A stretch of 64,000 bases of DNA from Hormiphora californensis (lineage: Eukaryota > Animalia > Ctenophora), in NCBI GenBank assembly GCA_020137815.1, contig CM035355.1:8308001-8372000 (forward strand), read 5' to 3'. How positions within the stretch are numbered: the stretch's first letter is position 1; the number at the start of each line of letters is the position of its first letter. Below the pieces are notes generated by a model. It was not told the origin of the DNA. It saw nothing but the letters and a program-made list of their open reading frames with translations, and ran no database searches. Position numbers and translations under genes: made by a program. Shown in pieces: positions 202-30,522 of this stretch.

Positions 202-3200
202 TCACACCCATGACAATAGGAGTGTATAATACCTGATAACTATTTCTTGGAGGGTGTTGGTATTATTGTATCCTGGGTAGAGGAGTTTAACTTCACTCGT
301 TACACGAGTACCGGAGGCGTTGAAGTGAACTGTCTGATACATGTCCTGGGGTAATGTACATGTGAGTGGAGTGTGGATTAGTACATGTCCTGGGGTAATG
401 TACATGTGAGTGGAGTGTGGATTAGTCTGGTACATGTCCTGGGGTAATGTACATGTGAGTGGAGTGTGGATTAGTCTGGTACATGTCCTGGGTAATGTAC
501 ATGTGAGTGGAGTGTGGATTAGTCTGGTACATGTCCTGGGGTAATGTACATGTGAGTGGAGTGTGGATTAGTCTGGTACATGTCCTGGGGTAATGTACAT
601 GTGAGTGGAGTGTGGATTAGTCTGGTACATGTCCTGGGGTAATGTACATGTGAGTGGAGTGTGGATTAGTCTGGTACATGTCCTGGATAGGGGGGGGGGG
701 GGTAATGTACATGTGATGTACAATGTACATGGGGGTAATATAGTTTACCTTTCGAAGGAAAAGGTTTGGGAATATCAACTTTAAATTCTTCTTCTTTAGT
801 CTGATTGATAATTTCAACTAACTAATCAATACCTTTGATATCGTGTCTTCAGAAACACCATCATCCACAAACAGGAAGCCTGAAGCTGACTTATCAGCTG
901 CTAGATATACCTCCACTATGTAGTCCCCTGACTTCAGCCTGGGAGACAGAGAGGGGAGTTAGAGACAGAGAGGAGTTAGAGAAGGGGAGAGAGGGGAGTT
1001 AGAGAGGGGAGTTAGAGAAGGGGAGAGGGATTATAGACAGAGAACTACAAAGCATATTTAAACCAAGAAGCGGAACCCCAAAGGTTTCTCTAATAGTTTC
1101 TATGACTCACATTTCAGAGGTTGAGTTAGCGGTATTTAGATGCCTAACCACCACAGAACCGCCCCTTATAAAGGTAGGAATTGTCTCCATTGTTACCGAG
1201 ATATCCTTCTTCCCATTTCCAGATGTGCTCACTACAGCTCTTGTCTCACCGTCATACCAGAGGTTATCCACCCCACCAGGGAAGTACACCTCCCTCTTTG
1301 TAACTCCCTGAAATTGAATAGCAGTTGTTTGTAACTCCTTGGGGGAGGGTGAGTTTGTTACGGAGGAGAGGAAGGGGAGACCCCACCGGGGAAATACACC
1401 TCCCTCTTTGTAACTCCCTGGGAGGGGGGGGGGGGGATTTTGTTGTTACTAAACCATGTCACAATGGAGGGCATTCAAAATGAAACTGTAACTGTATGAA
1501 CTCAAGGATTTGTAAATGACATTCTACAGCTTGGAACAAGTGACTAAAGTAATTCCCTAACATGTCCCAAGATCACCCGCACCGGGGGAGGGAGAGAGCC
1601 GAGAGGTGTGTTTACCTTTATTGTTACAGGTGTCACCATGATAGCATCTCCCAACATAAACTGACTGACAATGTCCAGTGTTGAATTATCATCTAGATAA
1701 TCAAAGAAGAGTGGTTTAACAACCATAGCTCCAACAGTGTGAGCTAGATAGAACTGGGAGTAGAGGTAGGGGAGGAGCTTGTAACGAGTCTCAATTGATG
1801 TCTTGATACGGGCTGTTGCTTCAGCTGAGAATTCTGTATCCGGTGAGGTACCCTGGAAGGAATGGAGATTGGAGATATTGGAAAGGAATGGAGGTTATAT
1901 AAACAGTAGGGGGTGGTAGATTGGCTGGCTAGTGGACCTCAATTCATGAGAAAACTCAAAACTCCGTTTATAAAACTAACTTTACAATTAGAACTACATA
2001 ATTATAAAACTTTACAAATAATAATTTAGTAACGTACGGATGATGAGAATCTCTTTAGCGAAGGGGAAGTATGTGGCCAGCTGATACCATCTCACAGCAC
2101 AGTTCCTCGTCTACATGTTGCTCCATCTCCACAGATATTTGTTACCAACCAGGGGCATGCCAAAGAAGTTGTAGTTCAGGATAGCTATAGGGGCGGGGAA
2201 TCATTTTAGTTGTGTTACATAACATGACAAACTTCCCAATAAGCAATAATGGGATAATCAATAAATACATTTCATTAAACCCAGTTTTTATCAGTTTATT
2301 AAACCTGTAATAGAGCTGTTTAGACCCTGATATTATTATTATTATGAACCTGTAATAGAGCTGTTTAGTCCCTCCCAGGTAGAGGGTATATCCTGGATCC
2401 AGTGTCCTGAATGAACCCCTGATCCCACATAGGTAGATCGGGATAGAGTCAACCTTCTCTTCTTGTCCTCAGATAGTGACATTTGGACCCTGTGTAGGGG
2501 GAGAGAGGTGGGTTAGTGACTTCATGACGTAACACTGTGTAGAGAGAGAGAGAGATGGGTTAATATCTTCATGACATCAAATCGTGACGTCACACATGGT
2601 AGCACTCTCTCTGATCAAGTTAGAGATGTGTAATCGCATTAATTCTCGCTTTGTCTAGACGCTGGATGTGAAGATATAGAACAACAGATCGTTCCCTATT
2701 CGACCAGCTAGGTATGTCTGTCTGTCTGTTTGACCGTTTGACTGTTTCTAAGTGTGTCTGTTTCTATATGTTTCTCTGTTTCTAGGTTTGTTTCTTAGTT
2801 CGTCTGTCTCCCTTACTCTTGAGTGGTCTGGCTACTGGCCCATCCATATATATTGTGTACATCAGAGTGCCTGAGTCCCCCGTGTAACTTTGCACTGGGA
2901 CACAGAGTGTTCTGCTTCAGATCCTTGACGTGGAATAACGTGTAGAGAGGATTATCTAGAGTCTCGTCTGAGGGGGAACAACATAGGTTATAGAGATTTT
3001 GGAAGAATAGCAACCCCTACTAATGTCTATAGTGTATCGTGGTATTGTCCTTAAATGTACCCTAAACCTCTCATTCCCCACTACTAACCTGTACACCCAG
3101 TGGTACTTCCAGTGCTGTCTGTTCTTGGCTCATTCTCAGTCAGCAACAATCCAGAATGAGGGAGATCCAGGGAGAAGGCAGTGAGACCATCTTGAAACCA

Positions 3201-6200
3201 ATTCTTGGTAGAAGGGTGGAAGTAATCAGGAAACACCGTGTCCTTCCCATCAACCTAGTGTATTGGAAGTTGTTACATAACGTGACGTCACGACGTGACG
3301 TCATGACGTGACGTCACGACGTTATATTATCATGTGACGTTACGACGTTATTATAAATCCACTTCAAGGTTGTTATTATTAATGGTTGAGTTTCTTGAAT
3401 ATTCTAAAGTAGACCACTGGTATTTTAATCTTATCTTAGCAGGTGCTCTAAGAAACTTGAGAAGCTAAGGCAATAACATACTGTCACCCTAATAATAATA
3501 CTAGCAATAATACTGACAGTTGTCACTCTAATACTAGTATATAATACTAATCAGTAAGCTAAGGCAATCACCAATACTTACAGTAGAAATAATATCATTG
3601 CCTTGGCTGTCCTTGACAAATAATCCCGCTTTTTGTCCCGTCTTGTACCACTCACTACTATCTAGTACCTGTAGGGAAGTGTGCCATGATGTTAGTATGG
3701 GGAAGTGAGGACTGATGGTGGGGAAGGGACAACTGATCAGACCATCCAATTTGATAGAAGGAGATAAAGAGGGGGTAGTTGCACTGAGGGGCGGCAGTTA
3801 GTGGCACTGTTTGACAGATGTCAGGGTGTGTCCCCACCCGAGTTAAAAAGAGCATGTTAGTTACGGAGGGCTTCTGTGGGTGATAAGAAACACGGCCCTT
3901 TATTTTGTATGATTTTACAACTAATTTATTGATTCCATTGATTTCTACTGTATAATTTACTATATATTTTATTTTAAGGCCGATATTGGCCCCCCCCCCC
4001 CACTAAAAAAAATTTACTACTAATTTTAGTATAACTAGTCAAAAAAAAAATGAGAATAATAAGAAGTATAAAAGATCTTGTCGCTGGCATCATAGGGGGG
4101 GGGGGGGTGCAGCCCCAAAAAAATTCAAACTTTTTCCGAAACCCAGGGTATGGTTGGTTTTTTGGTCGTTTTTGGTTGAAATTTCTTTGATTTTTTTGGG
4201 TCGTTTTTGATTTTTTTTTGTCGTTTTTGATTTTTTTTAATCTTTTTTGATTTTTTTTTCATCGTTTTTGATTTTTTTTTGAATTTTTTTGATCGTTTTT
4301 GAATTTTTTTGATCGTTTTTGATTTTTTTAAATTGTTTAATGTTGAACAAAAAGTTCAAAAAAAATAAAAAACGATCAAATAAAATAAAAAACGATCAAA
4401 AAAATTCAAAAAAATTAAAAACGATCAAAAAAAATAAAAAAAGATCAAATAAAATCAAAGACGATCAAAAAAAATTCAAAAAAAAATCAAAAACGATAAA
4501 AAAAATAAAAATCCAGGGTATGGTTGGTTTTTTTTGGGCTGCACCCCCCCCCCCCCCATCATAATAATATCTCCCTAGCTCTATCACACTTTACTTATTG
4601 AATGGAGAGAGAGAGGGTCGAACAAGGTAAACTCACCCTGATAGCAGGAGTTGCATGGAACAGTAGATGTTTTCCCAAGTCCCCCAAGTCCCTGGAGATA
4701 TTACCCAGCCCTCCAAACTTGTCTGAATTCACAGTAAACTGAACCTCGTTCTCCCTAATGTTCTGTCCCAGCCAAATTCCGTCCTGTGGAGGGGCAGGTA
4801 ACTTAGTGAAGGCAGAGAGAGAGAGAGAGAGAGAGGGAGGAATAAACATTCCGTCCTGGGGAAATGTTGGTGAGGGTAGTAGGGAGGGTAGTAGGGGGGG
4901 GGGGGGTGAGGGAGAGAGACATCTCCTGTGAAAAGTGAAGGTATACTGAACAACACAATATGTTCTATACTACACAGCAGGTTGAGGCAATGTAATATTA
5001 TTAGATGTAGTTGTACATCTTGACAGCTAAACACTGCATGTTCTGTATGGCTAAAGGTCACCTTCTAAATAACACCACAATCCACATATACAGCAAGGTA
5101 TCATGGTATACAGTACTGTACCATGAAGTATTTTGATCCTTGTTTACTTTGTACCCAGTTTCCCTCTCCAGCTCCCTGCCCCCCTTTATTCTCTAGAAGG
5201 CACTACTCCTCTTTTGTCGCTACCGCAGACACATCAACAGGGTTATGTGTATAGCAACATGTCAGGTGTCAGGTATAATACTGGTAACAGGCGCTACCTA
5301 TCACCTGACAGCCGGGTCTAACCTGCATTTTATCTAGTTTAAACCACCTGACAGCCGGCATATATACTTTACTTAGCTTTACTTGACAGGTCCAACCTGC
5401 GTATTTATACTCTCTTTTTCCTTCTCTCTCTCTCTCTTCTCTAGAATTCTCTCTCTGTTTTTATTCCACTCTACTTATAACTCTACCACAAACAACACAT
5501 GTGTATAAGCCTGGTAATAACCGCTACCTGAATAGCCGTCTAACCTGCATACTATATTTACACTAACAGGTCATACCTGGGACAGGTTATGTCAACACAG
5601 GACACAGGTAGTTCAGTGTATTCACACGAATAACTTTGCGGTGGTGGAAGGTGTCAAAAACAACTGACGGTTGGTAACAGAACAATCGAGAACGAAAAGA
5701 AGTTGATATATGATATGTTGTGACATATGGAGAAAACACGGATAATAAAAACACTTACCAGCGGTATATCAATATCTTCTGCATCTCTAATCTGGTCAGA
5801 ACTCTCGTATTTTCCACTACCATAATGGTACCCCAGGGCCCAGAGGGGAGGAAGGAAGGGCGCACCAATCTATAGGGGGGGGTGAGGGGTGGAAGGAAGG
5901 GCGCACCAATCTACAGGGGGGTGAGGGGCGGTAGGAAGGGCGCACCAATCTAAAGGGGGGTGAGGGGTGGTAGGAAGGGCGCACCAATCTACAGGGGGGT
6001 GAGGGGTGGTAGGAAGGGCGCACCAATCTACAGGGGGTGAGGGGTGGTAGGAAGGGCGCACCAATCTACAGGGGGGTGAGGGGTGGTAGGAAGGGCGCAC
6101 CAATCTACAGGGGGGTGAGGGGTGGTAGGAAGGGCGCACCAATCTACAGGGGGGTGAGGGGTGGTAGGAAGGGCGCACCAATCTACAGGGGGGTGAGGGG

Positions 6201-9200
6201 TGGTAGGAAGGGCGCACCAATCTACAGGGGGGTGAGGGGTGGTAGGAAGGGCGCACCAATCTACAGGGGGTGAGGGGTGGGAAGAAGGGCGCACCAATCT
6301 ACAGGGGGTGAGGGGTGGTAGGAAGGGCGCACCAATCTACAGGGGGGTGAGGGGTGGTAGGAAGGGCGCACCAATCTACAGGGGGTGAGGGGCGGTAGGA
6401 AGGGCACACCAATCTATAGGGGGGGGGGGGGTGAGGAGTGGAAGGAAGGGTGCACCAATCTACAGGGGAGGGGTGGTAGGAAGGGCACACCAATCTACAG
6501 GGGGTGAGGGGCGGTAGGAAGGGCACACCAATCTACAGGGGGGGGGGGGGGGGGAGGGGTGGTAGGAAGGGCGCACCAATCTACAGGGGGGGGGGTGAGG
6601 GGTGGTAGGAAGGGCGCACCAATCTACAGGGGGTGAGGGGTGGTAGGAAGGGCGCACCAATCTACAGGGGGGGGGGGGTGAGGGGTGGAAGGAAGGGCGC
6701 ACCAATCTACAGGGGGGGTGAGGGGTGGAAGGAAGGGCGCACCAATCTACAGGGGGGGTGAGGGGTGGTAGGAAGGGCGCACCAATCTACAGGGGGGTGA
6801 GGGGTGGTAGGAAGGGCGCACCAATCTACAGGGGGGTGAGGGGTGGTAGGAAGGGCGCACCAATCTACAGGGGGGGGGGGGGTGGTAGGAAGGGCGATCT
6901 AATCTACAGGGGGGTGAGGGGCGGTAGGAAGGGCGCACCAATCTACAGGGGGGGGGGGGTGGTAGGAAGGGCGCACCAATCTACAGGGGGGGGGGTGAGG
7001 GGTGGAAGGAAGGGCGCACCAATCTACAGGGGGGGTGAGGGGTGGAAGGAAGGGCGCACCAATCTACAGGGGGGGTGAGGGGTGGTAGGAAGGGCGCACC
7101 AATCTACAGGGGGGTGAGGGGTGGTAGGAAGGGCGCACCAATCTACAGGGGGGTGAGGGGTGGTAGGAAGGGCGCACCAATCTACAGGGGGGGGGGGGGG
7201 GTGAGGGGTGGAAGGAAGGGCGCACCAATCTACAGGGGGGGTGAGGGGTGGAAGGAAGGGCGCACCAATCTACAGGGGGGGTGAGGGGTGGTAGGAAGGG
7301 CGCACCAATCTACAGGGGGGTGAGGGGTGGTAGGAAGGGCGCACCAATCTACAGGGGGGTGAGGGGTGGTAGGAAGGGCGCACCCATCTACATGGGGGTG
7401 AGGGGTGGAAGGAAGGGCGCACCAATCTACAGGGAGGGGGTGAGGGGTGGTAGGAAGGGCACACCAATCTACAGGGGGTGAGGGGCGGTAGGAAGGGCAC
7501 ACCAATCTACAGGGGGGGGGGGGGAGGGGTGGTAGGAAGGGCGCACCAATCTACAGGGGGGGGGTGAGGGGTGGTAGGAAGGGCGCACCAATCTACAGGG
7601 GGTGAGGGGTGGTAGGAAGGGCGCACCAATCTACAGGGGGGGGGGGGGTGAGGGGTGGAAGGAAGGGCGCACCAATCTACAGGGGGGGTGAGGGGTGGGA
7701 AGGAAGGGCGCACCAATCTACAGGGGGGGGTGAGGGGCGGTAGGAAGGGCGCACCAATCTACAGGGGGGTGAGGGGTGGGAGGAAGGGCGCACCAATCTA
7801 CAGGGGGGGGTGTGAGGGGTGGTAGGAAGGGCGCACCAATCTACAGGGGGGGTGAGGGGTGGTAGGAAGGGCGCACCAATCTACAGGGGGGGGGGGTGAG
7901 GGGTGGTAGGAAGGGCGCACCAATCTACAGGGGGGTGAGGGGTGGTAGGAAGGGCGCACCAATCTACAGGGGGGGGTGAGGGGTGGAAGGAAGGGCGCAC
8001 CAATCTACAGGGGGGGTGAGGGGTGGAAGGAAGGGCGCACCAATCTACAGGGGGGGGGTGAGGGGTGGTAGGAAGGGCGCACCAATCTACAGGGGGGTGA
8101 GGGGTGGGAGGAAGGGCGCACCAATCTACAGGGGGGGGGGTGAGGGGCGGTAGGAAGGGCGCACCAATCTACAGGGGGGTGAGGGGTGGGAGGAAGGGCG
8201 CACCAATCTACAGGGGGGGGTGTGAGGGGTGGTAGGAAGGGCGCACCAATCTACAGGGGGGGGGGGGGGGAGGGGTGGAAGGAAGGGCGCACCAATCTAC
8301 AGGGGGGTGAGGGGTGGTAGGAAGGGCGCACCAATCTACAGGGGGGGTGAGGGGTGGAAGGAAGGGCGCACCAATCTACAGGGGGGTGAGGGGTGGTAGG
8401 AAGGGCGCACCAATCTACAGGGGTGAGGGGTGGTAGGAAGGGCGCACCAATCTACAGGGGGGTGAGGGGTGGTAGGAAGGGCGCACCAATCTACAGGGGG
8501 GGGGGGGGTGGAAGGAAGGGCGCACCAATCTACAGGGGGGGGTGAGGGGTGGTAGGAAGGGCGCACCAATCTACAGGGGGGTGAGGGGTGGTAGGAAGGG
8601 CGCACCAATCTACAGGGGGTGTGAGGGGTGGTAGGAAGGGCGCACCAATCTACAGGGGGGGGGAGGGGTGGTAGGAAGGGCGCACCAATCTACAGGGGGG
8701 GTGAGGGGTGGTAGGAAGGGCGCACCAATCTACAGGGGGGGTGAGGGGTGGTAGGAAGGGCGCACCAATCTACAGGGGGGTGAGGGGTGGAAGGAAGGGC
8801 GCACCAATCTACAGGGGAGGGGGGTGGTAGGAAGGGCGCACCAATCTACAGGGGGGGGGAGGGGGGTGGTAGGAAGGGCGCACCAATCTACAGGGGGGGG
8901 TGAGGGGTGGTAGGAAGGGCGCACCAATCTACAGGGGGGGGGGGGTGGTAGGAAGGGCGCACCAATCTACAGGGGGGGGGGGGGTGGTAGGAAGGGCGCA
9001 CCAATCTACAGGGGGGGGGGTGGTAGGAAGGGCGCACCAATCTACAGGGGGGGGGGGGGTGGTAGGAAGGGCGCACCAATCTACAGGGGGGGGGGGGTGA
9101 GGGGTGGGAGGAAGGGCACACCAATCTACAGGGGGGTGAGGGGTGGTAGGAAGGGCACACCAATCTACAGGGGGGTGAGGGGGGTGAGGGGTGGTAGGAA

Positions 9201-12200
9201 GGGCGCACCAATCTACAGGGGTGAGGGGTGGTAGGAAGGGCGCACCAATCTACAGGGGGGTGAGGGGTGGGAGGAAGGGCGCACCAATCTACAGGGGGGT
9301 GAGGGGTGGTAGGAAGGGCGCACCAATCTACAGGGGGGTGAGGGGTGGTAGGAAGGGTGCACCAATCTACAGGGGGGTGAGGGGTGGTAGGAAGGGCGCA
9401 CCAATCTACAGGGGGGTGGTGGTAGGAAGGGTGCACCAATCTACAGGGGGGTGAGGGGTGGTAGGAAGGGCGCACCAATCTACAGGGGGGTGAGGGGTGG
9501 TAGGAAGGGCGCACCAATCTACAGGGGGGGTGAGGGGTGGTAGGAAGGGTGCACCAATCTACAGGGGGGGTGAGGGGTGGTAGGAAGGGCGCACCAATCT
9601 ACAGGGGGGTGAGGGGTGGTAGGAAGGGCGCACCAATCTACAGGGGGGTGAGGGGTGGAAGGAAGGGCGCACCAATCTACAGGGGGGGTGAGGGGTGGAA
9701 GGAAGGGCGCACCAATCTACAGGGGGGTGAGGGGTGGTAGGAAGGGCGCACCAATCTACAGGGGGTGAGGGGTGGTAGGAAGGGCGCACCAATCTACAGG
9801 GGGGGTGAGGGGTGGTAGGAAGGGCGCACCAATCTACAGGGGGGTGAGGGGTGGTAGGAAGGGCGCACCAATCTACAGGGGGGGGGGGGGTGAGGGGTGG
9901 TAGGAAGGGCGCACCAATCTACAGGGGGGGGGGGTGGTAGGAAGGGCGCACCAATCTACAGGGGGGGTGAGGGGTGGGAGGAAGGGCGCACCAATCTACA
10001 GGGGGGTGAGGGGTGGGAGGAAGGGCGCACCAATCTACAGGGGGGTGAGGGGTGGTAGGAAGGGCGCACCAATCTACAGGGGGGTGAGGGGTGGTAGGAA
10101 GGGCTGCACCAATCTACAGGGGGGTGAGGGGTGGTAGGAAGGGCGCACCAATCTACAGGGGGTGAGGGGTGGTAGGAAGGGCGCACCAATCTACAGGGGG
10201 GGGAGGGGTGGTAGGAAGGGCGCACCAATCTACAGGGGGTGAGGGGTGGTAGGAAGGGCGCACCAATCTACAGGGGTGAGGGGTGGTAGGAAGGTCGCAC
10301 CAATCTACAGGGGGGGTGAGGGGTGGTAGGAACGGCGCACCAATCTACAGGGGGGGTGAGGGGTGGAAGGAAGGGCGCACCAATCTACAGGGGGGTGAGG
10401 GGTGGTAGGAAGGGCGCACCAATCTACAGGGGGGTGAGGGGTGGTAGGAAGGGCGCACCAATCTACAGGGGGGGTGAGGGTGGAAGGAAGGTCGCACCAA
10501 TCTACAGGGGGGGTGAGGGGTGGTAGGAAGGGCGCACCAATCTACAGGGGGGGTGAGGGGTGGTAGGAAGGGCGCACCAATCTACAGGGGGGGTGAGGGG
10601 TGGTAGGAAGGGCGCACCAATCTACAGGGGGGGGTGAGGGGTGGAAGGAAGGGCGCACCAATCTACAGGGGGGTGAGGGGTGGGAGGAAGGGCGCACCAA
10701 TCTACAGGGGGGGTGAGGGGTGGTAGGAAGGGCGCACCAATCTACAGGGGGGGTGAGGGGTGGTAGGAAGGGCGCACCAATCTACAGGGGGGGGTGAGGG
10801 GTGGTAGGAAGGGCGCACCAATCTACAGGGGGGTGAGGGGTGGAAGGAAGGGCGCACCAATCTACAGGGGGGGGTGAGGGTGGTAGGAAGGGCGCACCAA
10901 TCTACAGGGGGGTGAGGGTGGAAGGAAGGGCGCACCAATCTACAGGGGGGTGAGGGGTGGTAGGAAGGGCGCACCAATCTACAGGGGGGGAGGGGTGGTA
11001 GGAAGGGCGCACCAATCTACAGGGGGGGGGGGGGTGGTAGGAAGGGCGATCTAATCTACAGGGGGGGGGTATTGGACTTTGGAGTTTGGGACAAGGGGTA
11101 ATGGTAATGGTATCATAGTGTACCATGGTTCCATTTATTTGTACATTACGTAGTGTCTAAAGAGTAACCTGAGATTCCTATATATACGCGACGATGAATT
11201 GTCGCGTATAGCAGGCAGCATGGTATAATACCAGCAGACCAGCAATGCAGATAACAACCAGCATAGATAAGACACTGTGTGGCATGTTGTAAAGCTTGGC
11301 AAAACTCCAGATCACACACACACAAGTTTTATAGGTTGATAGGTTGGTGGCAAGTGAGTATTAACTAGGCAACTATAAATTCCACACCGCGCGTTAGTTG
11401 CTACCAATTCCCACCAATATTTGAAACATGGCCCATGTTACCATGGTTACATGGGCCTCTTCCAAATCACTCACCTGTGCAGTAAACTGTTCTATAACGT
11501 TGGCAGGGGTTGGGCCCAGGAATATGTAGAAATCAAGGATACCTCCAGTAGTTCGGAACGATACAGCTGGGTACGGGTTGAGAACAATATCTGAGAGAAG
11601 GAGGGGTTAACAAGGGTCGCAGAACTGGTGGGGGGGGTTGAGCAGGGTGGGTGGGAGGAGGGTTAACAAGGGTCGCAGAACTGGGGGGAGGGGGGAGCAG
11701 GGTGAGATGAGGGAAGTGGGAGGAGGGGTTAACAAGGGTTGCAGAACTGGGGGACGAGGGGAGCAGGGTGAGATGAGGGAAGTGGGAGGAGGGTTAACAA
11801 GGGTCGCAGAACTGGGGGGAGGGGGGAGCAGGGTGAGATGAGGGAAGTGGGAGGAGGGGTTAACAAGGGTTGCAGAACTGGGGGGGGGGGAGGAGGGTGA
11901 GATGAGGGAAGTGGGAGGAGGGTTAACAAGGGTTGCAGAACTGGGGGACGAGGGGAGCAGGGTGAGATGAGGGAAGTGGGAGGAGGGTTAACAAGGGTCG
12001 CAGAACTGGGGGGAGGGGGGAGCAGGGTGAGATGAGGGAAGTGGGAGGAGGGGTTAACAAGGGTCGCAGAACTGGGGGGAGGGGGGAGCAGGGTGAGATG
12101 AGGGAAGTGGGAGGAGGGGTTAACAAGGGTTGCAGAACTGGGGGACGAGGGGAGCAGGGTGAGATGAGGGAAGTGGGAGGAGGGTTAACAAGGGTCGCAG

Positions 12201-14419
12201 AACTGGGGGGAGCAGGGACGCAGGGTGAGATGAGGATTAGGAGGGGTGTGGTTCAACCTATCTATAGCATATATAATATGTATAGAATCTAGATTTGAAT
12301 GAGGTGGGATGTGTTTCATCTAGTAGTGCCGCTTTGAGGAAGAATTATTGTCGGGAACTTTGAGGTGAAATTTTGAAGTTATGCGGGGGGGGGGGGCGTC
12401 ACTTTTTTTTGCCCATTGCCCATAATCCCAGCAAATTTTGGTTTTGCCCATATGGGAAAAATGGGCAAAAGTGGGCAAAAGTGGACAAAATGAAATTTTC
12501 AGTGTTATCAGGAATGGAACTGTAAGATCGAATGTGCTCATTTGGGAGGGGCGGGAGAGAAGACCGTATTATATTACATATTTTCATGATCACAGACATT
12601 ATGATTACGACTAATAAAGATAAAGAGAGAGAAGGATGAAGAGAAAAAGAGAGAGAAAGATAAAGAGAGAATAGTTTGGAAGTGACTGAGTTTGTTAGAA
12701 TTATTGAGAATATTTCCTGAGGGTTTAAATCAGACGACAAGGGGGACCTAGATAGCGGGATGCGTCTTATCGGTTGCTCAAATGGACCGTGACAGGCTCA
12801 ACTGGAGCGTGACGGGCTCTTTACTGGACCGTGACATCTTGCGTAGCCCACACTGTGAGAGTTCGGTAGATCAAGTGACTGGTGAAAGCTAGTTTAACAG
12901 CAGAGGGAGGGTTGGCTTTAACAGCGTCCCCCATGACTGGCAACTAGAGAAGACTGACCGGTCATGTGTCACCAAGTCTAAAACTACCCCTCCCCCCCCC
13001 GCAATCATTATAAATTTGATGTTCATCACACACCAAAACCACCAGAACACTCAAAACTAACCCATAGCGTCTGAGTTCTGTAGCAGATACCCACTGGCAT
13101 GCCCATCATGTTCCAGGTGCATAAAGAAGGGGTGGGCACCATGGTCCTTTCTAGCCCACAGAGACTGGGTGGTGTACTCCATTCTTCGTAGTAAACCATC
13201 GTACTGCAAACCATACACTTTACTGGGGAGAGGGGTGGGAGGTGGTTTACTACCTAGGAAGAGGGTTGGGAGTGGTTAGGAGGGGAGAAAATTGCAATTC
13301 AACACAATTCTTGCCTCCGCTAGGTCTCGTACTACGAGACTTGAACTGTAGTGTGTAGACTGTAGTTACACTACAAAAGACATCTAGTGGATCCCTTCTT
13401 ACTTGGTGGATAGCATCATGTTAAGTTGTATCAGCTGATCTGAGAATATCAGACCCTCCATAGACGTGTTGAAGATGGTAGAGCTGGCCTCGTGGGTCCT
13501 AGATACTGAGAATCCAAACAGATCATGTGTTGCAGTTAGAATGTATTGCATCCTGTGTCCTGCCTGTTCGTGGTGCTCACTCATCGGCACCTGGGGTGGG
13601 GGTTGTATTGGAACCTGGGGAGGGGTGGGGGCTGTGGTGGGGCGAGATTATTAGTAGACCATTAGTATTAAATTGGAGGGGTGTAGGAGTGACGAGAGGT
13701 TACGTCAGGTAGAATAGAGAATCTATCTACTAGAGAGATAATTAGATAGTCAACCCTTTAGATGAATTTACTAAGTAAAGCACTGTCACCACTCTTACCA
13801 CGTATCTGTCACGATCCTTAGGGTCAAATATCCTGACTCGCAGCCTGCTATCTGTCTCATAAGATATCACACACTTTAGTTGATCCACCTCAGTAGTGTA
13901 CATCTTAGGTATTTGTTCGTTTCGTACCAGATCAAACTCCATCCCAAACACTGTTACCGTGCTGTTTTCCACTCTGTAACCTGAGATGGGGAGGGAAGGT
14001 GATGTTACTGTGTAGAAATACACAGAAATATACAGATGCAGAAATGTCTGTACTGATGAATATACATTATGTATGCAACAAGTCAAAGAAGACAACTCGT
14101 AGGGGTAGTATTAGCCACTTGTTAGCTTAGTACCTAGAAAATATAACAAGTACAGTAATTTACCTCTTTTGTCAGCAAATGAGTAGTGACATTTGGGTGT
14201 AGGGAATACAGCGGTCCCGTCCCAACACCCGTTTATTGACCAGCAATCTGCCTCTGTTTTTACTAGGCCTAATGCTGCGTCAATTCTCTTGTACTTCTCC
14301 ACTGACCTACATTGCTGAAAACATGCACGGAGTTTAAAATGCTGTTATTCAAGCAAGGAGAGAGGGGAGAGAAGGAGAGATAGTGAGATGGGGGGGAGAG
14401 AGATAATGAGAGAGGGAGA

Positions 14420-14500
<81 letters not shown>

Positions 14501-14976: not shown

Positions 14977-15023
14977 TATTAAAGGAATCTAAAGCTAAAA
15001 TAGTTTGTGGTGATAGGGATTTT

Positions 15024-16696: not shown

Positions 16697-17295
16697 GGGC
16701 GTACTTCATACCTGGATCACCAAAAATTGCAAAATCTTTAGATTAACACCTTAATATATTTAAGAATTTAATGTGGTATTAAATACTATTCTTAAAGCTA
16801 AAAGAATACCGAAATTGACGAAGTAACTTCGTTCCTTTAAAAAAAAACCGTGATTTGAATTTTGAAAATAAAAAACGATTTCAAAAACTCGGCGTCCGAG
16901 TGTTTTTAATTAACAGAGCGCGCGCGGCGTTTAAATGTTTTGCGCAGGGCAGAGCATATTATCAAAATTACGCGCGTTACGTAGAATATCCAAGTCTGTT
17001 GGTTCCCACACTGGCCCCAGTGCGAAAGACAGCCTGTGTGACATAGTAAGGACCACCCTAATACCCATCGGTTAAGTTAAACAAGTGATAGAATATCGGA
17101 TATAGCTGTCAGGAAATGTTAAAGATAAATAAACACATTGCAAACAAACAAAATCTCAAATCACAAACAGAATATGATCTCTCCTAGCTCCTTCAAAAAC
17201 ATGTGTCGACTGCAAACACCGAAAAGCATGCATTACATTCTGATTTCCCACCGTATAACGTATATTCTATACAGTAAACATCAAATTAACAACTC

Positions 17296-20200: not shown

Positions 20201-23200
20201 GGGGGGGGTGGACTGGGGGGGGGGGGCCGTTGAACTGGGGGGGGGGGGGGCAATTTAGGTTTGGGGGGGGGGGGGGGGCCGTTGGTTTGAGGGGGGGGGG
20301 GGCATTTTGGGGAGGGGGGGGGGAGGGTTGGATGGGGGGGGGGGGTTTGAGGGGGGGGGGGGGGCACTGTTAGGATCTGGGGGGGGGGGGGCACTGTAGG
20401 ATCTGGGGGGGGGGGGGCACTGTTGGATCTGGGGGGGGGGGGGCACATGTGAGGTTGGGGGGGGGGGGCATGTTAGGATCGGGGGGGGGAAAATGGTCTG
20501 GGGGGGGGGGGCGCAATGGGGGGGGGGGGGGAGGTTGGTGGGGGGGGGGGGGGGAAGTAGGTGGAGGGGGGGGGGGGGGGAGTGGGGGGGGGGGGGGGGG
20601 GGGCACTGTTGTCTGAGGGGGGGGGGGCACTGTTAGGATCTGGGGGGCGGGGGGGGCGCACTGTCAGGATCTGGGGGGGGGGGGGGGGACTGGGGGGGTT
20701 GGATCTGGGGGGGGGGGGGACTGTTAGGATTGGGGGGGGGGTGCCTGTTAGGGGGGGGGGGGGGGGGCATTGGGGGGGGGGGGGCGTTAGGATCTGGGGG
20801 GGGGGGGGCAGTGGATGGGGGGGGGGGGGGGGGCGGGAGGGGGGGGGGGGGCATAGATGGGATCGGGGGGGGGGCATGTTGGGTTTGGGGGGGGGGGGGG
20901 GGCCTGTGGCTGGGGGGGGGGGGGGGCGGGGATTGGGGGGGGGGGGGGACTGGGGATTGGGGGGGGGGGGGGGGGGGGCACGTGGATTGAGGGGGGGGGG
21001 GGGGCGTTAGGATGGGGGGGGGGGGGCGTGGATCTGGGGGGGGGGGGGACTGTCAGGGTGGGGGGGGGGGGGAGGTTGGACGGGGGGGGGGGGGGGTGAT
21101 TGAGGGGGGGGGGGGGTGGTTTGGGGGGGGGGGGGGGTGGGGGGGGGATTGGAGGGGGGGGGGGGGGGGGCAGTTAGGATTGAGGGGGGGGGGGTTGGAT
21201 GAGGGGGGGGGGGGCACGGTGGGGGGGGGGGGGGGGGGGGGGGGGGCCTGTTAGGGGGGGGGGGGGGGGGCACTGTAGGATCTGGGGGGGGGGGGCCTGT
21301 TAGGATTCTGGGGGGGGGGGGAGGGGGGGGGGGGGAATTTAGGATCTGGGGGGGGGGGCAAGTTAGGATCTGGGGGGGGGGGGGGGGTTAGGAGGGGGGG
21401 GGGGGGGGCCACTGGGTTAGGGGGGGGGGGGGGGCCTTCTGGATGGGGGGGGGGGGGGCACTGTTAGGATCGGGGGGGGGGGGGTGGCGTTAGGGTGGGG
21501 GGGGGGGGGGCGTTAGGATCGAGGGGGGGGGGCAGGTTAGATGGGGGGGGGGGGGGGGAAGTTAGGATCTGGGGGGGGGGGCGGGCATGGTTGGTGGGGG
21601 GGGGGGGCAAGTGATCTGGGGGGGGGGGGGGGGGGGGGGGAGGAGGGATTGGGGGGGGGGGGGGGGGTAGGATTGGGGGGGGGGGGGGGGCCCACTGTAG
21701 ATAGGATGGGGGGGGGGGGCCTGGGGGGGGGGGGGGGGTGGATTGGAGGGGGGGGGGGGGGCACTGTTAGGAGGGGGGGGGGCGTTGGTTGAGGGGGGGG
21801 GGGGGGGGCACTGGATTGAGGGGGGGAGGGGGGGGGGGGAGGGGGACTGTAGGATTGAGGGGGGGGGGGGAGGATCTGGGGGGGGGGGGGAGGGGTGGAG
21901 GGGGGGGGGGGACGGAGGGGGGGGGGGGGTTGGATGGGGGGGGGGGGGCACTGTTAGGATCTGAGGGGGGGGGGGACTGTTAGGATCTGAGGGGGGGGGG
22001 ACGGGGGGGGGGGGGGGGGCACTGTTGGCATTGAGGGGGGGGGGGGGAGGGGGGGGGGGGGCACGTTAGGATCTGAGGGGGGGGGGGGGCACTGTTAGGA
22101 TCTAGGGGGGGGGGGGGGAGGGGGGGCTGGGGGGGGGGGGGGGCACTGTTGGATTGGGGGGGGGGGGGCACTGTAGGATCGGGGGGGGGGGGGGTTGGTG
22201 GGGGGGGGGGGGGGGGGGGGGGGGGGGGATCGGAGGGGGGGGGACTGTTAGATCTGAGGGGGGGGGGGTGTTAGGATCTGAGGGGGGGGGGGAGGTTTGG
22301 AGGGGGGGGGGGGGGCCATGTTAGATCTGGGGGGGGGGGGGGGCGTTGGATCGGGGGGGGGGGGGCCTGTTGGTTGGGGGGGGGGGAGGGGGGGGTCGGG
22401 GGGGGGGGGACTGTTGGATTGGGGGGGGGGGCATGTAGGATCTGAGGGGGGGGGGCCTTTGGAGGGGGGGAGTGGAGGGGGGGCGTTAGGATCTGGGGGG
22501 GGGGGGGGCTGTTAGGATCTGAGGGGGGGGGGGGGGCACATTTGAATGGGGGGGGGGGGGGGTTGGGGGGGGGGGAGGAGCGGGGGGGGGGCCGTTGGAA
22601 CTGAGGGGGGGGGGGAGGCACTGTTAGGATCTGGGGGGGGGGGCACTGTTAGGATCTGGGGGGGGGGGGGCACTGTTAGTATCTGAGGGGGGGGGGGGCA
22701 TGTAGAATCTGAGGGGGGGGGGGGGCACTGTTAGGATTGAGGGGGGGGGGGGCACTGTTAGGATCTGGGGGGGGGGGGGCACTGTTAGGATCTGAGGGGG
22801 GGGGGGGGCACTGTTAGGATCTGGGGGGGGGGGCACTGTTAGGATCTGAGGGGGGGGGGGCACTGTTAGGATCTGAGGGGGGGGGGGGCACTGTTAGGAT
22901 CTGAGGGGGGGGGGGGCACTGTTAGGATCTGAGGGGGGGGGGCACTGTTAGGATCTGGGGGGGGGGGCACTGTTAGTATCTGAGGGGGGGGGGGCACATG
23001 TTAGGATCTGAGGGGGGGGGGGCACGTTAGGATCTTGGGGGGGGGCACCTGTTAGGATCTGAGGGGGGGGGGGCACGGTTAGGATCTGAGGGGGGGGGGG
23101 CCACTGTTAGGATCGGAGGGGGGGGGCAGGTCCACTGTTAGGACTGGCGGGGAGGGGGGCACTGTTAGGATCTGGGGCGGGGGGGGGGAACTGTTAGGAT

Positions 23201-26200
23201 CTGAGGGGGGGGCACTGTGTTTAGGACTTGAGGTGGGGGGGGCATGTTAGGATCTGGGGGGGGGGGGCACTGGTTAGGATCTGAAGGGGGGGGGGGGGGG
23301 CACTGTTAGGATCTGAGGGGGGGGGGGCACTGTTAGGATCTGGGGGGGGGGGGGGGGGCACTGTTAGGATCTGGGGGGGGGGGGGGGCACTGTTAGGATC
23401 TGGGGGGGGGGGGGGGGCACTGTTAGGATCTGAGGGGGGGGGTGCACTGTTAGGATCGGGGGGGGGGGGGGCACTGTTAGGATCTGGGGGGGGGGGCACT
23501 GTTAGGATCTGGGGGGGGGGGGGGGCACTGTTAGGATCTGGGGGGGGGGGCACTGTTAGGATCTGGGGGGGAGGGGGGCACTGTTAGGATCTGAGGGGGG
23601 GGGGGGCACTGTTAGGATCTGGGGGGGGGGGCACTGTTAGGATCTGGGGGGGGGGGGGGGCACTGTTAGGATCTGGGGGGGGGGGCACTGTTAGGATCTG
23701 ATGGGGGGGGGCACTGTTAGGATCTGAGGGGGGGGGGGGGGGGCACTGTTAGGATCTGAGGGGGGGGGGGGGGCACTGTTAGGATCTGAGGGGGGGGGGC
23801 ACTGTTAGGATCTGGGGGGGGGGGGCACTGTTAGGATCTGAGGGGGGGGGGGGGGGCACTGTTAGGATCTGGGGGGGGGGGGCACCGTCAGGATCTGAGG
23901 GGGGGGGGTGCACTGTTAGGATCTGGGGCGCGACACATACATTAAACTATTGTCAAGATGAATTTCAGATCAAATCAGGATGTTGTATCCGGTTGTATGT
24001 GGTAAATGGTGAAATAAATGGTAAAATAATGATCCGACTGATCTACCTCTCCAAAAGGGAAGTTCTCTATCTTTGGGAGGACGGCAATATCTTTCTCTCT
24101 CAGTGCCATTAGTTCCTCTCCGCAACAGTCTTTAGGTTCAACCTGCCAACAGATGGATGAGTATTTAGACAGAAAGAGAGACTGAGAGACAGAGAGACAT
24201 AAGGAGAGACAGACAAACAGACAGACAGCTACATACCTGTAAGGGCCAGCTGGGTATGACAGACAGCTACCTACCTGTAAAGGCCAGCTGGGTATGATGG
24301 CAGGTTTTGATATACAAACAGACAGACAGCTACCTGTAAGGGCCAGCTGGGTATGATGGCAGGTTTTGATATACAAACAGACAGACAGCTACCTGTAAAG
24401 GCCAGCTGGGTATGATGGCAGGTTTTGATATACAAACAAACAGACAGACAGCTATACCTGTAAAGGCCAGCTCGGAATGATGGCAGGTTTAGATATACAA
24501 ACAGACAGACAGCTATACCTGTAAAGGCCAGCTGGGAATGATGGCAGGTTTTGATATACAAACAGACAGACAGCTACCTGTAAGGGCCAGCTGGGTATGA
24601 TGGCAGGTTTTGATATACAAACAGACAGACAGCTACCTGTAAAGGCCAGCTGGGTATGATGGCAGGTTTTGATATACAAACAGACAGACAGCTATACCTG
24701 TAAGGGCCAGCTGGGAATGATGGCAGGTTTTGATATACAAACAGACAGACAGCTACATACCTGTAAAGGCCAGCTGGGTATGATGGCAGGTTTTGATATA
24801 CAAACAGACAGACAGCTACATACCTGTAAAGGCCAGCTGGGTATGATGGCAGGTTTTGATATACAAACAGACAGACAGCTACCTGTAAGGGCCAGCTGGG
24901 TATGATGGCAGGTTTTGATATACAAACAGACAGACAGCTACCTGTAAAGGCCAGCTGGGTATGATGGCAGGTTTTGATATACAAACAGACAGACAGCTAC
25001 CTGTAAAGGCCAGCTGGGTATGATGGCAGGTTTTGATATACAAACAGACAGACAGCTACATACCTGTAAAGGCCAGCTGGGAATGATGGCAGGTTTTGCT
25101 ATACAGACAGACATGACAGCTACCTGTAAAGGCCAGCTGGGTATGATGGCAGGTTTTGATATACAAACAGACAGACAGCTATACCTGTAAAGGCCAGCTG
25201 GGTATGATGGCAGGTTTTGATATACAAACAGACAGACAGCTACATACCTGTAAAGGCCAGCTGGGAATGATGGCAGGTTTTGATATACAGACAGACAGAC
25301 AGCTACCTGTAAAGGCCAGCTGGGAATGATGGCAGGTTTTGATATACAAACAGACAGACAGCTACATACCTGTAAAGGCCAGCTGGGTATGACAGACAGA
25401 CAAGCAGACAGACAGACAGCTACATACCTGTAAAGGCCAGCTGGGTATGATGGCAGGTTTTGATATACAAACAGACAGACAGCTACCTGTAAAGGCCAGC
25501 TGGGTATGATGGCAGGTTTTGATATACAAACAGACAGACAGCTACCTGTAAGGGCCAGCTGGGTATGATGGCAGGTTTTGATATACAAACAGACAGACAG
25601 CTACCTGTAAGGGCCAGCTGGGTATGATGGCAGGTTTTGATATACAAACAGACAGACAGCTACCTGTAAGGGCCAGCTGGGTATGATGGCAGGTTTTGAT
25701 ATACAAACAGACAGACAGCTACCTGTAAGGGCCAGCTGGGAATGATGGCAGGTTTTGATATACAAACAGACAGACAGCTACCTGTAAGGGCCAGCTGGGA
25801 ATGATGACAGGTTTTGATATACAAACAGACAGACAGCTACCTGTAAAGGCCAGCTGGGAATGATGGCAGGTTTTGATATACAAACAGACAGACAGCTACC
25901 TGTAAAGGCCAGCTGGGTATGATGGCAGGTTTTGATATACAAACAGACAGACAGCTACATACCTGTAAAGGCCAGCTGGGAATGATGGCAGGTTTTGATA
26001 TACAGACAGACAGACAGCTACCTGTAAAGGCCAGCTGGGAATGATGGCAGGTTTTGATATACAGACAGACAGACAGCTACCTGTAAAGGCCAGCTCGGAA
26101 TGATGGCAGGTTTTGATATACAAACAGACATGACAGCTATACCTGTAAGGGCCAGCTGGGTATGATGGCAGGTTTTGATATACAGACAGACAGACAGCTA

Positions 26201-29200
26201 TACCTGTAAAGGCCAGCTGGGTATGATGGCAGGTTTTGATATACAAACAGACAGACAGCTACATACCTGTAAAGGCCAGCTGGGAATGATGGCAGGTTTT
26301 GATATACAAACAGACAGACAGCTACCTGTAAGGGCCAGCTGGGAATGATGGCAGGTTTTGATATACAAACAGACAGACAGCTACCTGTAAGGGCCAGCTG
26401 GGTATGATGGCAGGTTTTGATATACAAACAGACAGACAGCTACCTGTAAAGGCCAGCTGGGTATGATGGCAGGTTTTGATATACAAACAGACATGACAGC
26501 TATACCTGTAAAGGCCAGCTGGGTATGATGGCAGGTTTAGACAGACAGACAGACAGACAGACAGCTATACCTGTAAAGGCCAACTGGGTATGATGGCAGG
26601 TTTTGATATACAAACAGACAGACAGCTATACCTGTAAGGGCCAGCTGGGTATGATGGCAGGTTTTGATATACAGACAGACAGACAGCTACCTGTAAGGGC
26701 CAGCTGGGTATGATGGCAGGTTTTGATATACAAACAGACAGACAGCTACCTGTAAAGGCCAGCTCGGAATGATGGCAGGTTTTGATATACAAACAGACAG
26801 ACAGCTACCTGTAAGGGCCAGCTGGGTATGATGGCAGGTTTTGACATACAAACAGACAGACAGCTACCTGTAAGGGCCAGCTGGGTATGATGGCAGGTTT
26901 TGATATACAGACAGACAGACAGCTACCTGTAAAGGCCAGCTGGGTATGATGGCAGGTTTTGATATACAGACAGACAGACAGCTATACCTGTAAAGGCCAG
27001 CTGGGTATGATGGCAGGTTTTGATATACAAACAGACATGACAGCTATACCTGTAAAGGCCAGCTGGGTATGATGGCAGGTTTAGACAGACAGACAGACAG
27101 ACAGACAGCTATACCTGTAAAGGCCAACTGGGTATGATGGCAGGTTTTGATATACAAACAGACAGACAGCTATACCTGTAAAGGCCAGCTGGGTATGATG
27201 GCAGGTTTTGATATACAAACAGACAGACAGCTACCTGTAAGGGCCAGCTGGGAATGATGGCAGGTTTTGATATACAAACAGACAGACAGCTACATACCTG
27301 TAAAGGCCAGCTGGGAATGATGGCAGGTTTTGATATACAGACAGACAGACAGCTACCTGTAAAGGCCAGCTGGGTATGATGGCAGGTTTTGATATACAAA
27401 CAGACAGACAGCTACCTGTAAGGGCCAGCTGGGTATGATGGCAGGTTTTGATATACAAACAGACAGACAGCTATACCTGTAAAGGCCAGCTCGGAATGAT
27501 GGCAGGTTTTGATATACAAACAGACAGACAGCTACATACCTGTAAAGGCCAGCTGGGTATGACAGACATGACAGCTACCTGTAAGGGCCAGCTGGGTATG
27601 ATGGCAGGTTTTGATATACATACAGACAGACAGCTATACCTGTAAGGGCCAGCTGGGTATGATGGCAGGTTTTGATATACAGACAGACAGACAGCTACCT
27701 GTAAAGGCCAGCTGGGAATGATGGCAGGTTTTGATATACAAACAGACAGACAGCTACATACCTGTAAAGGCCAGCTAGGAATGATGGCAGACAGATACAG
27801 ACAGACATGACAGCTATACCTGTAAGGGCCAGCTGGGTATGATGGCAGGTTTTGATATACAGACAGACAGACAGCTACCTGTAAAGGCCAGCTGGGAATG
27901 ATGGCAGGTTTTGATATACAAACAGACAGACAGCTACATACCTGTAAAGGCCAGCTGGGAATGATGGCAGGTTTTGATATACAAACAGACAGACAGCTAC
28001 ATACCTGTAAAGGCCAGCTGGGTATGATGGCAGGTTTTGATATACAGACAGACAGACAGCTACCTGTAAAGGCCAGCTGGGAATGATGGCAGGTTTTGAT
28101 ATACAGACAGACAGACAGCTACATACCTGTAAAGGCCAGCTAGGAATGATGGCAGACAGATACAGACAGACATGACAGCTACATACCTGTAAAGGCCAGC
28201 TGGGTATGATGGCAGGTTTTGATATACAAACAGACAGCTACATACCTGTAAAGGCCAGCTGGGTATGATGGCAGGTTTTGATATACAAACAGACAGACAG
28301 CTACCTGTAAAGGCCAGCTGGGTATGATGGCAGGTTTTGATATACAAACAGACAGACAGCTACCTGTAAAGGCCAGCTGGGAATGATGGCAGGTTTTGAT
28401 ATACAAACAGACAGACAGCTATACCTGTAAAGGCCAGCTGGGTATGATGGCAGGTTTTGATATACAAACAGACAGACAGCTACCTGTAAAGGCCAGCTGG
28501 GAATGATGGCAGGTTTTGATATACAAACAGACAGACAGCTACCTGTAAGGGCCAGCTGGGTATGATGGCAGGTTTTGATATACAAACAGACAGACAGCTA
28601 CATACCTGTAAAGGCCAGCTGGGAATGATGGCAGGTTTTGATATACAAACAGACAGACAGCTACCTGTAAAGGCCAGCTGGGAATGATGGCAGGTTTTGA
28701 TATACAGACAGACAGACAGCTACATACCTGTAAAGGCCAGCTGGGTATGACAGACAGACAAGCAGACAGACAGACAGCTACATACCTGTAAAGGCCAGCT
28801 GGGTATGATGGCAGGTTTTGATATACAAACAGACAGACAGCTACCTGTAAAGGCCAGCTGGGAATGATGGCAGGTTTTGATATACAGACAGACAGACAGC
28901 TACCTGTAAAGGCCAGCTGGGTATGATGGCAGGTTTTGATATACAAACAGACAGACAGCTATACCTGTAAAGGCCAGCTGGGAATGATGGCAGGTTTTGA
29001 TATACAAACAGACAGACAGCTATACCTGTAAGGGCCAGCTGGGAATGATGGCAGGTTTTGATATACAAACAGACAGACAGACAGCTATACCTGTAAGGGC
29101 CAGCTGGGTATGATGGCAGGTTTTGATATACAAACAGACAGACAGCTACCTGTAAGGGCCAGCTGGGTATGATGGCAGGTTTTGATATACAAACAGACAG

Positions 29201-30522
29201 ACAGCTACCTGTAAGGGCCAGCTGGGTATGATGGCAGGTTTTGATATACAAACAGACAGACAGCTATACCTGTAAAGGCCAGCTGGGAATGATGGCAGGT
29301 TTTGATATACAGACAGACAGACAGCTACATACCTGTAAAGGCCAGCTGGGTATGATGGCAGGTTTTGATATACAAACAGACAGACAGACAGCTATACCTG
29401 TAAAGGCCAGCTGGGAATGATGGCAGGTTTTGATATACAAACAGACAGACAGCTACCTGTAAGGGCCAGCTGGGTATGATGGCAGGTTTTGATATACAAA
29501 CAGACAGACAGCTATACCTGTAAGGGCCAGCTAGGAATGATGGCAGGTTTTGATATACAAACAGACAGACAGCTATACCTGTAAAGGCCAGCTGGGTATG
29601 ATGGCAGGTTTTGATATACAGACAGACAGACAGCTATACCTGTAAAGGCCAGCTGGGTATGATGGCAGGTTTTGATATACAAACAGACAGACAGACAGCT
29701 ATACCTGTAAAGGCCAGCTGGGTATGATGGCAGGTTTTGATATACAAACAGACAGACAGCTACCTGTAAAGGCCAGCTAGGTATGATGGCAGGTTTTGAT
29801 ATACAAACAGACAGACAGCTACCTGTAAGGGCCAGCTGGGTATGATGGCAGGTTTTGATATACAAACAGACAGACAGCTACCTGTAAAGGCCAGCTGGTA
29901 TGATGGCAGGTTTTGATATACAGACAGACAGACAGCTACCTGTAAAGGCCAGCTGGGTATGATGGCAGGTTTTGATATACAAACAGACAGACAGCTATAC
30001 CTGTAAGGGCCAGCTGGGTATGATGGCAGGTTTTGATATACAAACAGACAGACAGCTACCTGTAAAGGCCAGCTGGGTATGATGGCAGGTTTTGATATAC
30101 AAACAGACAGACAGCTATACCTGTAAAGGCCAGCTGGGTATGATGGCAGGTTTTGATATACAAACAGACAGACAGCTATACCTGTAAAGGCCAGCTAGGA
30201 ATGACAGACAGACAGACAGACACGACAGACAGACATGACAGCTATACCTGTAAAGGCCAGCTGGGTATGATGGCAGGTTTTGATATACAAACAGACAGAC
30301 AGCTACCTGTAAGGGCCAGCTGGGTATGATGGCAGGTTTTGATATACAAACAGACAGACAGCTATACCTGTAAAGGCCAGCTGGGTATGATGGCAGGTTT
30401 TGATATACAAACAGACAGACAGCTACCTGTAAGGGCCAGCTGGGTATGATGGCAGGTTTTGATAGCTTCATAACTTTCAAAGAGAGAGCATGGGCTGATG
30501 TTGAAGTAGTACTGGAATCCAT
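17296..30522 (-). CDS. TRAPPC13: Trafficking protein particle complex subunit 13, ~10 exons
   Basis: Exons: [13 protein letters not shown] (30427-30522), VEPKDCC..FGE (24047-24142), [25 protein letters not shown] (19449-19559), TDLQTSSQR...HEVKELG, LVCSVSY...[64 protein letters not shown], terminal exon to 17296. Confidence 0.93.
19545..23927 (-). repeat. ~4.4-kb G/C-run array (~28-bp unit) of the TRAPPC13 exon-3 acceptor plus first ~15 nt of exon; centre very noisy
   Basis: Minus-strand unit C(n)tcAG|ATCCTAACAGTGCCC; the terminal copy (exon starts 19559) continues CAGAACTGTGGT = ILTVPQNCG. Confidence 0.9.
24215..30463 (-). repeat. ~6.2-kb array (~100 copies, 59-63 bp) of the TRAPPC13 exon-1 end plus 5' splice site
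   Basis: Minus-strand unit TCAAAACCTGCCATCATACCCAGCTGGCCTTTACAG|gtagctgtctgtctgtttgtata; the first copy encodes [12 protein letters not shown] of exon 1 (donor at 30426). Confidence 0.95.

What the first reader, a model, noticed from the sequence alone, without database searches (positions are those of the whole stretch)
334..30463. Intronic satellites are systematically seeded on the host gene's own splice junctions
Seen: four unrelated arrays in two genes (334-686, 5850-11070, 19545-23927, 24215-30463) each have a unit that straddles a real exon/intron boundary (splice site plus 9-36 nt of coding sequence). In every case the functional junction is the terminal copy and the array extends into the intron. 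A fifth array (11600-12235) amplifies the sequence just before an acceptor. Inference: this repeated placement suggests a junction-focused duplication process (for example co-transcriptional R-loop/G4 slippage at C-rich tracts or RNA-templated repair). It also implies the spliceosome handles ~100 near-identical decoy sites. Survivorship contributes, because expansion into exons would be purged, but it does not explain why units include the junction. I do not know of a description of this as a genome-wide system.
Basis: partly seen in the sequence, partly recalled or inferred. Interest (0 to 1): 0.85.

Follow-up and report, generated by a model that had tools for sequence, protein, structure and literature searches.

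The report
Comb-jelly splice-junction "mirage" minisatellites
In two neighbouring comb-jelly genes, four exon edges are copied head-to-tail 8 to about 130 times into the adjoining intron, a repeat type already described in lancelets, chickens and human genes; the copies differ from the working exon mostly at silent positions, so they are likely fed by out-of-register exchange between very different alleles.

Summary
The window is from a pleurobrachiid comb jelly; the hosts are a GH31 alpha-glucosidase and TRAPPC13. Four arrays span a splice junction (3 acceptors, 1 donor); the fifth stops short of its acceptor. The two arrays tested are present in short-read contigs, and one is polymorphic: a ~117-nt intron in one allele, 4,487 nt here. 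This is a known class (amphioxus 'mirages', human F7/CBS VNTRs, chicken 'exon stuttering', the last surveyed genome-wide), and this scan noted it before in other genomes. 9 of 30 introns carry a copy of their own junction (swap control 0 of 870). Short introns plus survival explain much of that: 9 of 22 duplications span a junction against 5.0-6.5 expected. R-loop and RNA-templated origins are disfavoured. Less ordinary: copies differ from the live exon at synonymous sites (17 of 21 variant types, about 6 expected), as alleles do (30 of 30), and two-copy cases carry a different intron tail. This points to exchange between homologues anchored on exon sequence; the scan noted this before elsewhere in this genome. 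Which copy is spliced was not seen in RNA of this species.

The parts
233..14314 (-). GH31 alpha-glucosidase host gene, exons 2-17 as modelled (first exon ends at 14553; last exon lies left of the window)
   Evidence: P0122: PF01055, PF21365; exons 2-12 and 14-17 stop-free
17299..30522 (-). TRAPPC13 host gene, 10 exons, 406 codons
   Evidence: PF06159/PF23647/PF23643; gapless alignment to L001
332..686 (-). Array 1: 49-nt unit = 35 nt intron tail + AG + 14 nt exon head; live acceptor at 346/345; 7 decoys
   Evidence: P0122 reads across at the terminal copy
5843..11066 (-). Array 2: ~39-nt unit = C-tract + AG + 27 nt exon head; live acceptor at 5870/5869; 128 decoys, none in frame and stop-free
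11600..12235 (-). Array 5: 66-nt unit from the pyrimidine tract before the acceptor at 11591/11590; does not include the junction
19544..23928 (-). Array 3: ~27-nt unit = poly-C + AG + 16 nt exon head; live acceptor at 19560/19559; absent from another allele (intron ~117 nt)
24215..30464 (-). Array 4: 59-65-nt unit = 38 nt exon end + GT + intron start; live donor at 30427/30426; 103 decoys; every unit runs GT...CAG
1380..1420 (-). Single copy of the acceptor at 1307 (38 nt exon head, silent differences, different intron tail)
2302..2328 (-). Single copy of the donor at 2350 (24 nt exon end)
4848..4862 (-). Single short copy of the acceptor at 4783
18910..18928 (-). Single copy of the acceptor at 18861; matched by a short-read contig; absent from other alleles
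37984..37998 (-).

Best explanation
These are 'mirage'-type minisatellites: exon edges copied in tandem into short introns, likely tolerated because splicing would use the copy next to the exon, and likely seeded and refreshed by out-of-register exchange between homologous chromosomes whose exons align but whose introns do not. Shown: arrays, intact decoy AG/GT, length polymorphism, silent-site bias, unlike tails, very divergent alleles. Inferred steps: (1) repair or crossover between two alleles pairs in the exon and rejoins slightly out of register at the exon edge, giving [tail A + exon edge A][tail B + exon B]; (2) duplications that damage the exon are purged, so the live junction is always terminal; (3) two copies then expand by unequal exchange and slippage, helped in arrays 2, 3 and 5 by G-runs on the template strand; (4) further exchanges with live exon edges bring other alleles' silent variants into the array.
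For: Recurrent differences in the exon-derived part of copies are synonymous in the host frame: 17 of 21 variant types vs 5.5-6.2 expected (P about 1e-6); away from unit edges 12 of 14, against 0 of 14 and 1 of 14 in the other two frames; among-copy variants alone 8 of 9 (P 3e-4), which evolution of the live exon cannot produce. All 30 allelic exon differences that I took are synonymous; one allele differs at 6 of 32 codons of exon 2. Introns of other alleles skip or replace 36-167 nt. In 5 of 5 two-copy cases the exon part matches over 8-38 nt but the intron side over only 1-5 nt beyond the AG/GT. All four combinations of linked variants occur among array 4 units. Other alleles carry junction-spanning duplications where this haplotype has none (18233-18286 in X6; 17743-17776 in X5), and an array-free allele of intron 2 exists. 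Inter-allelic mutation is the usual process at human minisatellites (PMC2599865, search listing only).
Against: I did not show that the array variants occur as live alleles. Counts are small and partly non-independent (9 of 11 by site; P 0.015 against a null in which the live exon also evolves); unit boundaries were set by eye; variants in fewer than 3 copies were left out and include non-synonymous ones (far end of array 2) as well as silent ones (far end of array 3). Enrichment over geometry is only 1.4-1.8-fold and not significant under one null (P 0.16). The data cannot separate 'born between alleles' from 'born within one allele and later recombined'. The assembly is noisy here (middle of array 3; four extra bases in GH31 exon 13 against P0122), so the GH31 haplotype could be broken.
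Confidence: 0.6

Rival explanations
1. Ordinary slippage or break-repair duplication within one chromatid, seeded by C/G-runs and microsatellites near intron ends, filtered by purifying selection, then VNTR expansion; no role for the other allele.
For: 13 of 22 local duplications do not span a junction, 8 of them within 60 nt of the 3' end; geometry predicts 5.0-6.5 of the 9 spanning cases; G4Hunter means of 1.4-2.3 on the template strand for arrays 2, 3, 5; X6's 54-nt duplication is a plain step back.
Against: Does not predict the synonymous bias among copies (8 of 9) or unlike tails in 5 of 5 two-copy cases; arrays 1 and 4 have no canonical G4 motif.
Confidence: 0.22
2. One reading: a co-transcriptional, junction-targeted process (R-loop or RNA-templated repair) creates the units.
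For: Some excess over geometry; events lean to the 3' end of introns (14 vs 5, P 0.06).
Against: Transcripts are C-rich at the arrays, the orientation that disfavours R-loops (PMC5580657 passage); 1 of 30 spliced-junction 16-mers matched, and that match is the live TAF6 acceptor itself, so no mRNA-derived insert was seen; acceptor vs donor 6:3, P 0.51. Repair from unspliced pre-mRNA was not testable.
Confidence: 0.07
3. The decoys matter for splicing: they are used at some rate (tuning output through NMD, or recursive removal of array 4, whose units run GT...CAG and regenerate the exon end), or array-bearing alleles are mis-spliced and tolerated in heterozygotes.
For: Decoy dinucleotides are intact; 21 internal donors of array 4 score higher than the live one (10.3 vs 4.3 on a matrix from the 30 introns); nearly all decoy use would shift the frame or stop (0 of 128, 1 of 59, 1 of 7, 2 of 103 harmless).
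Against: Presence/absence polymorphism argues against a needed function; human F7 uses only the first donor even against stronger downstream sites (PMC1557585 passages); mirages were reported not to disturb splicing (PMC3087553, PMC3902484 passages).
Confidence: 0.08
4. Assembly artefact of noisy long reads.
For: Middle of array 3 is degraded; stray indels elsewhere in the window.
Against: Units of arrays 3 and 4 are in short-read contigs of two samples at summed depths far above the exon between them (array 4: 16.6k vs 35 in X3, 195k vs ~600 in X4, 437k vs ~250 in X5, 87k vs 322 in X6; not copy numbers); an X4 contig matches 18828-19234 with one difference. Exact lengths remain unverified.
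Confidence: 0.03

Closest known systems
Amphioxus 'mirages' (Adh3, globins BflGb6/BflGb9, troponin C, PGBD5; PMC3087553 and PMC3902484, matching passages read)
   Same: Tandem units spanning either boundary, AG/GT retained, several unrelated loci, copy number differs between haplotypes, splicing reported normal.
   Different: Here a ctenophore; arrays reach 103-131 copies and 4-6 kb against 2-7 copies in the globin and PGBD5 cases; the passages read report no synonymous bias and call the mechanism unclear.
Chicken dot-chromosome 'exon stuttering' (PMC12954441; abstract, passages, section 7 part 2 and section 9 read; supplements not read)
   Same: Exon-edge copies in adjacent introns (median 36 bp exon part, >90% at the border), strong length polymorphism; G4 and meiotic strand-invasion errors proposed.
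   Different: 236 introns genome-wide, 3.4% of dot-chromosome introns, 1-44 copies; here 9 of 30 introns in a window chosen for the feature, in a genome of about 44% GC outside the arrays.
Human junction-spanning VNTRs (F7 IVS7, CBS IVS13, 6-16, LMNB2, PDGF; PMC1557585 passages)
   Same: First unit spans the donor; downstream pseudo-donors mostly silent; matches array 4.
   Different: Isolated loci, all donors, 5-25 copies; here three of four arrays are acceptor arrays that need the LAST AG to be chosen.
Intron gain by duplication of an AG/GT proto-splice site (Rogers model, as cited in PMC3087553)
   Same: Array 4 units run GT...CAG and could be removed as introns.
   Different: No new intron or exon is made; TRAPPC13 aligns without gaps to a relative.

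Membership tests
mirage / exon-stuttering minisatellite | Tandem unit spans an exon-intron boundary of the host gene | tested here: met
   Arrays 1-4; array 5 not met
mirage / exon-stuttering minisatellite | Array lies in the adjacent intron; exon unchanged | tested here: met
   Stop-free TRAPPC13, gapless to L001; P0122 across array 1
mirage / exon-stuttering minisatellite | Splice dinucleotides reiterated in the copies | tested here: met
mirage / exon-stuttering minisatellite | Length polymorphism between alleles or individuals | tested here: met
   Array 3 absent from an allele in X3; small copies vary; arrays 1, 2, 4, 5 not tested for length
mirage / exon-stuttering minisatellite | Local, unrelated units at several loci | tested here: met
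   Swap control 0 of 870; exon-internal control 0 of 156
mirage / exon-stuttering minisatellite | Normal splicing at the exon-adjacent copy in the array-bearing allele | tested here: inconclusive
   Only indirect (L001 from a relative, gene models P0121/P0122); no RNA of this species laid
mirage / exon-stuttering minisatellite | Somatic length instability (reported for Adh3) | not testable with these tools
   Only contigs available
RNA-templated (mRNA-derived) insertion | Unit contains a spliced exon-exon join | tested here: not met
G4-driven minisatellite | G4-forming unit | tested here: inconclusive
   Predicted for arrays 2, 3, 5 (template strand), not for 1 and 4; folding not measured
Recursive-splicing ratchet array (array 4) | AG|GT sites used in nascent RNA | not testable with these tools
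   Sequence form present; needs nascent-RNA reads

The most novel reading that the evidence does not exclude
In hyper-heterozygous genomes exons are the only places where homologues can align, so exon edges become recombination-anchored birthplaces of minisatellites, and the arrays act as archives of functional alleles that can exchange with the live exon. This would give mirages and exon stuttering one cause, and would show that a comb jelly picks the last of ~130 identical acceptors by exon definition.
Probability: 0.35. Interest if true: 0.7.

Novelty: new member of a known kind. Interest (0 to 1): 0.42.

Why it matters
The repeat class is known, but the papers read call its mechanism unclear. 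Here the copies carry a testable fingerprint (silent-site variation like that of alleles, foreign intron tails) that points to exchange between homologues. The locus is also a natural splicing test in an early-branching animal: a 117-nt versus a 4.5-kb allele of the same intron, and up to 128 decoy acceptors upstream of the live one.

Tried and rejected
No whole genome was held, so no genome-wide enrichment test. No RNA holder listed; the one run guessed to be RNA laid 0 contigs: no evidence either way. 24171-24238 was skipped by the read tool, so an array-free allele of array 4 could not be seen. A first, stricter junction detector found 5 acceptor and 2 donor cases and missed two clear ones; the looser one was calibrated on swaps (10 cases at score 9, 9 at score 10). 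Acceptor bias of junction copies: rejected (6:3, P 0.51; 8:3 with other alleles, P 0.23). mRNA-templated origin: rejected. G4 as a general cause: rejected. Literature searches for a ctenophore description and for the synonymous signature found none; these cover open-access full text only, and supplements of PMC12954441 and PMC3087553 were not read. PMC8527503 (passages) reports high heterozygosity and indel-rich introns in a relative but no junction repeats in the passages seen. The Adh3 and troponin C originals were seen only as cited.

Full report
Setting. The window is eukaryotic. Its single-exon thiolase hits an EukProt 'sb/' model at 95% and Bolinopsis at 65%; I recall 'sb' ids as Pleurobrachia bachei models, so a pleurobrachiid comb jelly is likely. 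No whole genome was held. Three intron-containing minus-strand genes were modelled by hand and by tblastn: a GH31 alpha-glucosidase (16 introns), TRAPPC13 (9) and part of TAF6 (5); Pfam confirms the families. Genes right of 54 kb were not modelled. The 30 introns have a median of 182 nt once arrays are collapsed.

Observation. TRF gives the five arrays at the stated places. Arrays 1-3 hold intron tail + AG + 14, 27, 16 exon nt; array 4 holds 38 exon nt + GT + intron start; array 5 stops before its acceptor. Decoy AG/GT are intact. With terminal copies TRAPPC13 is a stop-free 406-codon frame aligning gaplessly at 308/405 to L001, an intron-free contig from a relative; P0121 joins exons 1-2-3 the same way and P0122 crosses array 1. 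For array 2 the support is the open frame and adjacent tblastn segments of P0123. Decoy use would almost always break the frame: harmless cases are 1 of 7, 0 of 128, 1 of 59 and 2 of 103.

Real and polymorphic. In short-read contigs of two samples, units of arrays 3 and 4 have summed depths far above the exon between them (X3 shows only about 5-fold for array 3; these are not copy numbers). One 352-nt contig in X3 runs exon 2 to exon 3 through about 117 nt with a single junction copy, against 4,487 nt here. Over 17280-19556 other alleles skip or replace 36-167 nt of introns, lack this haplotype's copy at 18910-18928, or carry junction-spanning duplications that it lacks (18233-18286 in X6, 17743-17776 in X5). 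Both outputs were cut to the best-supported rows.

More than chance? 9 of 30 introns hold a copy of their own junction at score 10 or more (6 acceptors, 3 donors); junctions swapped between introns gave 0 of 870, exon-internal AG words 0 of 156. That shows local duplication, not targeting. Of 22 local duplications (shuffled contexts 0 of 72), 9 span a junction. Uniform placement with loss of exonic events predicts 5.0 (all introns) or 6.5 (introns up to 500 nt): P 0.03 and 0.16; for the five large arrays 4 vs 1.2-1.6, P 0.01-0.03, but the window was picked for them. So there is at most about a two-fold excess overall, and no acceptor bias among spanning events.

Mechanism. Template-strand G4 potential is high for arrays 2, 3, 5 and absent for 1, 4. 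Here 17 of 21 recurrent variant types in exon-derived parts are synonymous against 5.5-6.2 expected (variants in under 3 copies of large arrays were dropped as likely errors). Away from unit edges it is 12 of 14, with 0 and 1 of 14 in the other frames; by site 9 of 11; among-copy variants 8 of 9. All 30 allelic exon differences that I took from the visible rows are synonymous. In 5 of 5 two-copy cases the intron side differs while still looking like a splice signal. One far-end unit of array 3 has two silent changes that X4 contigs carry at about single-copy depth; far-end units of array 2 have non-silent ones. Non-coding copies cannot be selected for silence, so import from working alleles is the simplest reading. 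I infer out-of-register exchange between homologues anchored on exon homology, then ordinary minisatellite expansion; all four combinations of two variants among array 4 units fit continued exchange. Not shown: that these variants are live alleles, or whether exchange creates or only reshapes the first copy.

Splicing. Array 4 fits the F7 rule that the first donor wins (PMC1557585), though 21 internal donors score higher; its units run GT...CAG, so a wrong choice could be re-spliced (inference). Arrays 1-3 need the last AG, which implies exon definition (inference). No RNA of this species was available.

Known systems. Amphioxus mirages, human F7/CBS/6-16/LMNB2/PDGF VNTRs and chicken exon stuttering, screened genome-wide, share the defining features tested here. 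This scan has 10 earlier findings of the same kind in at least 7 genomes and the allele reading in this and two other windows; these are unchecked notes. I found no ctenophore case or synonymous-bias report in print.

Verdict. Real, polymorphic, a new member of a known kind, with unusually large arrays and a useful mechanistic fingerprint. Interest 0.42.

Noticed in passing
window 2038-2184: GH31 exon 13 has four more bases than model P0122 implies and breaks frame; frame breaks also appear near the GH31 start (~14640) and in a TAF6 exon (~38430). Likely long-read insertion errors, not checked in reads.
   Followed up: partly
window 43797-51566: ~499-nt satellite in blocks of both orientations, with many stray indels.
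   Followed up: no
window 15551-16705: Reverse-transcriptase (RVT_1) fragment between TRAPPC13 and GH31.
   Followed up: partly
window 18572-18723: Intronic element end with contig depth of 100,000-330,000 in three runs, a very high-copy repeat or MITE.
   Followed up: no
window 4090-4560: Palindrome-like T-rich/A-rich element with inverted ends inside GH31 intron 8.
   Followed up: no
window 57015-57348: 160-nt tandem duplication that appears to hold a donor, a short intron and an acceptor of an unmodelled plus-strand gene.
   Followed up: partly
window 59465-59500: Apparent two-copy donor duplication in an unmodelled minus-strand gene.
   Followed up: partly
window 31046-33691: 882-codon intron-free ORF with no Pfam match, next to the intron-free thiolase at 34140-35396.
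   Followed up: partly
window 24047-24142: Very high silent diversity: 9 variable third positions in 32 codons across four runs, 6 in one allele of sample S1.
   Followed up: yes
window 14690-14800: Acceptor-like site followed by a short repeat that reads His/Gly-rich in one frame, just upstream of the GH31 start; possibly 5' UTR or a trans-splice site.
   Followed up: no
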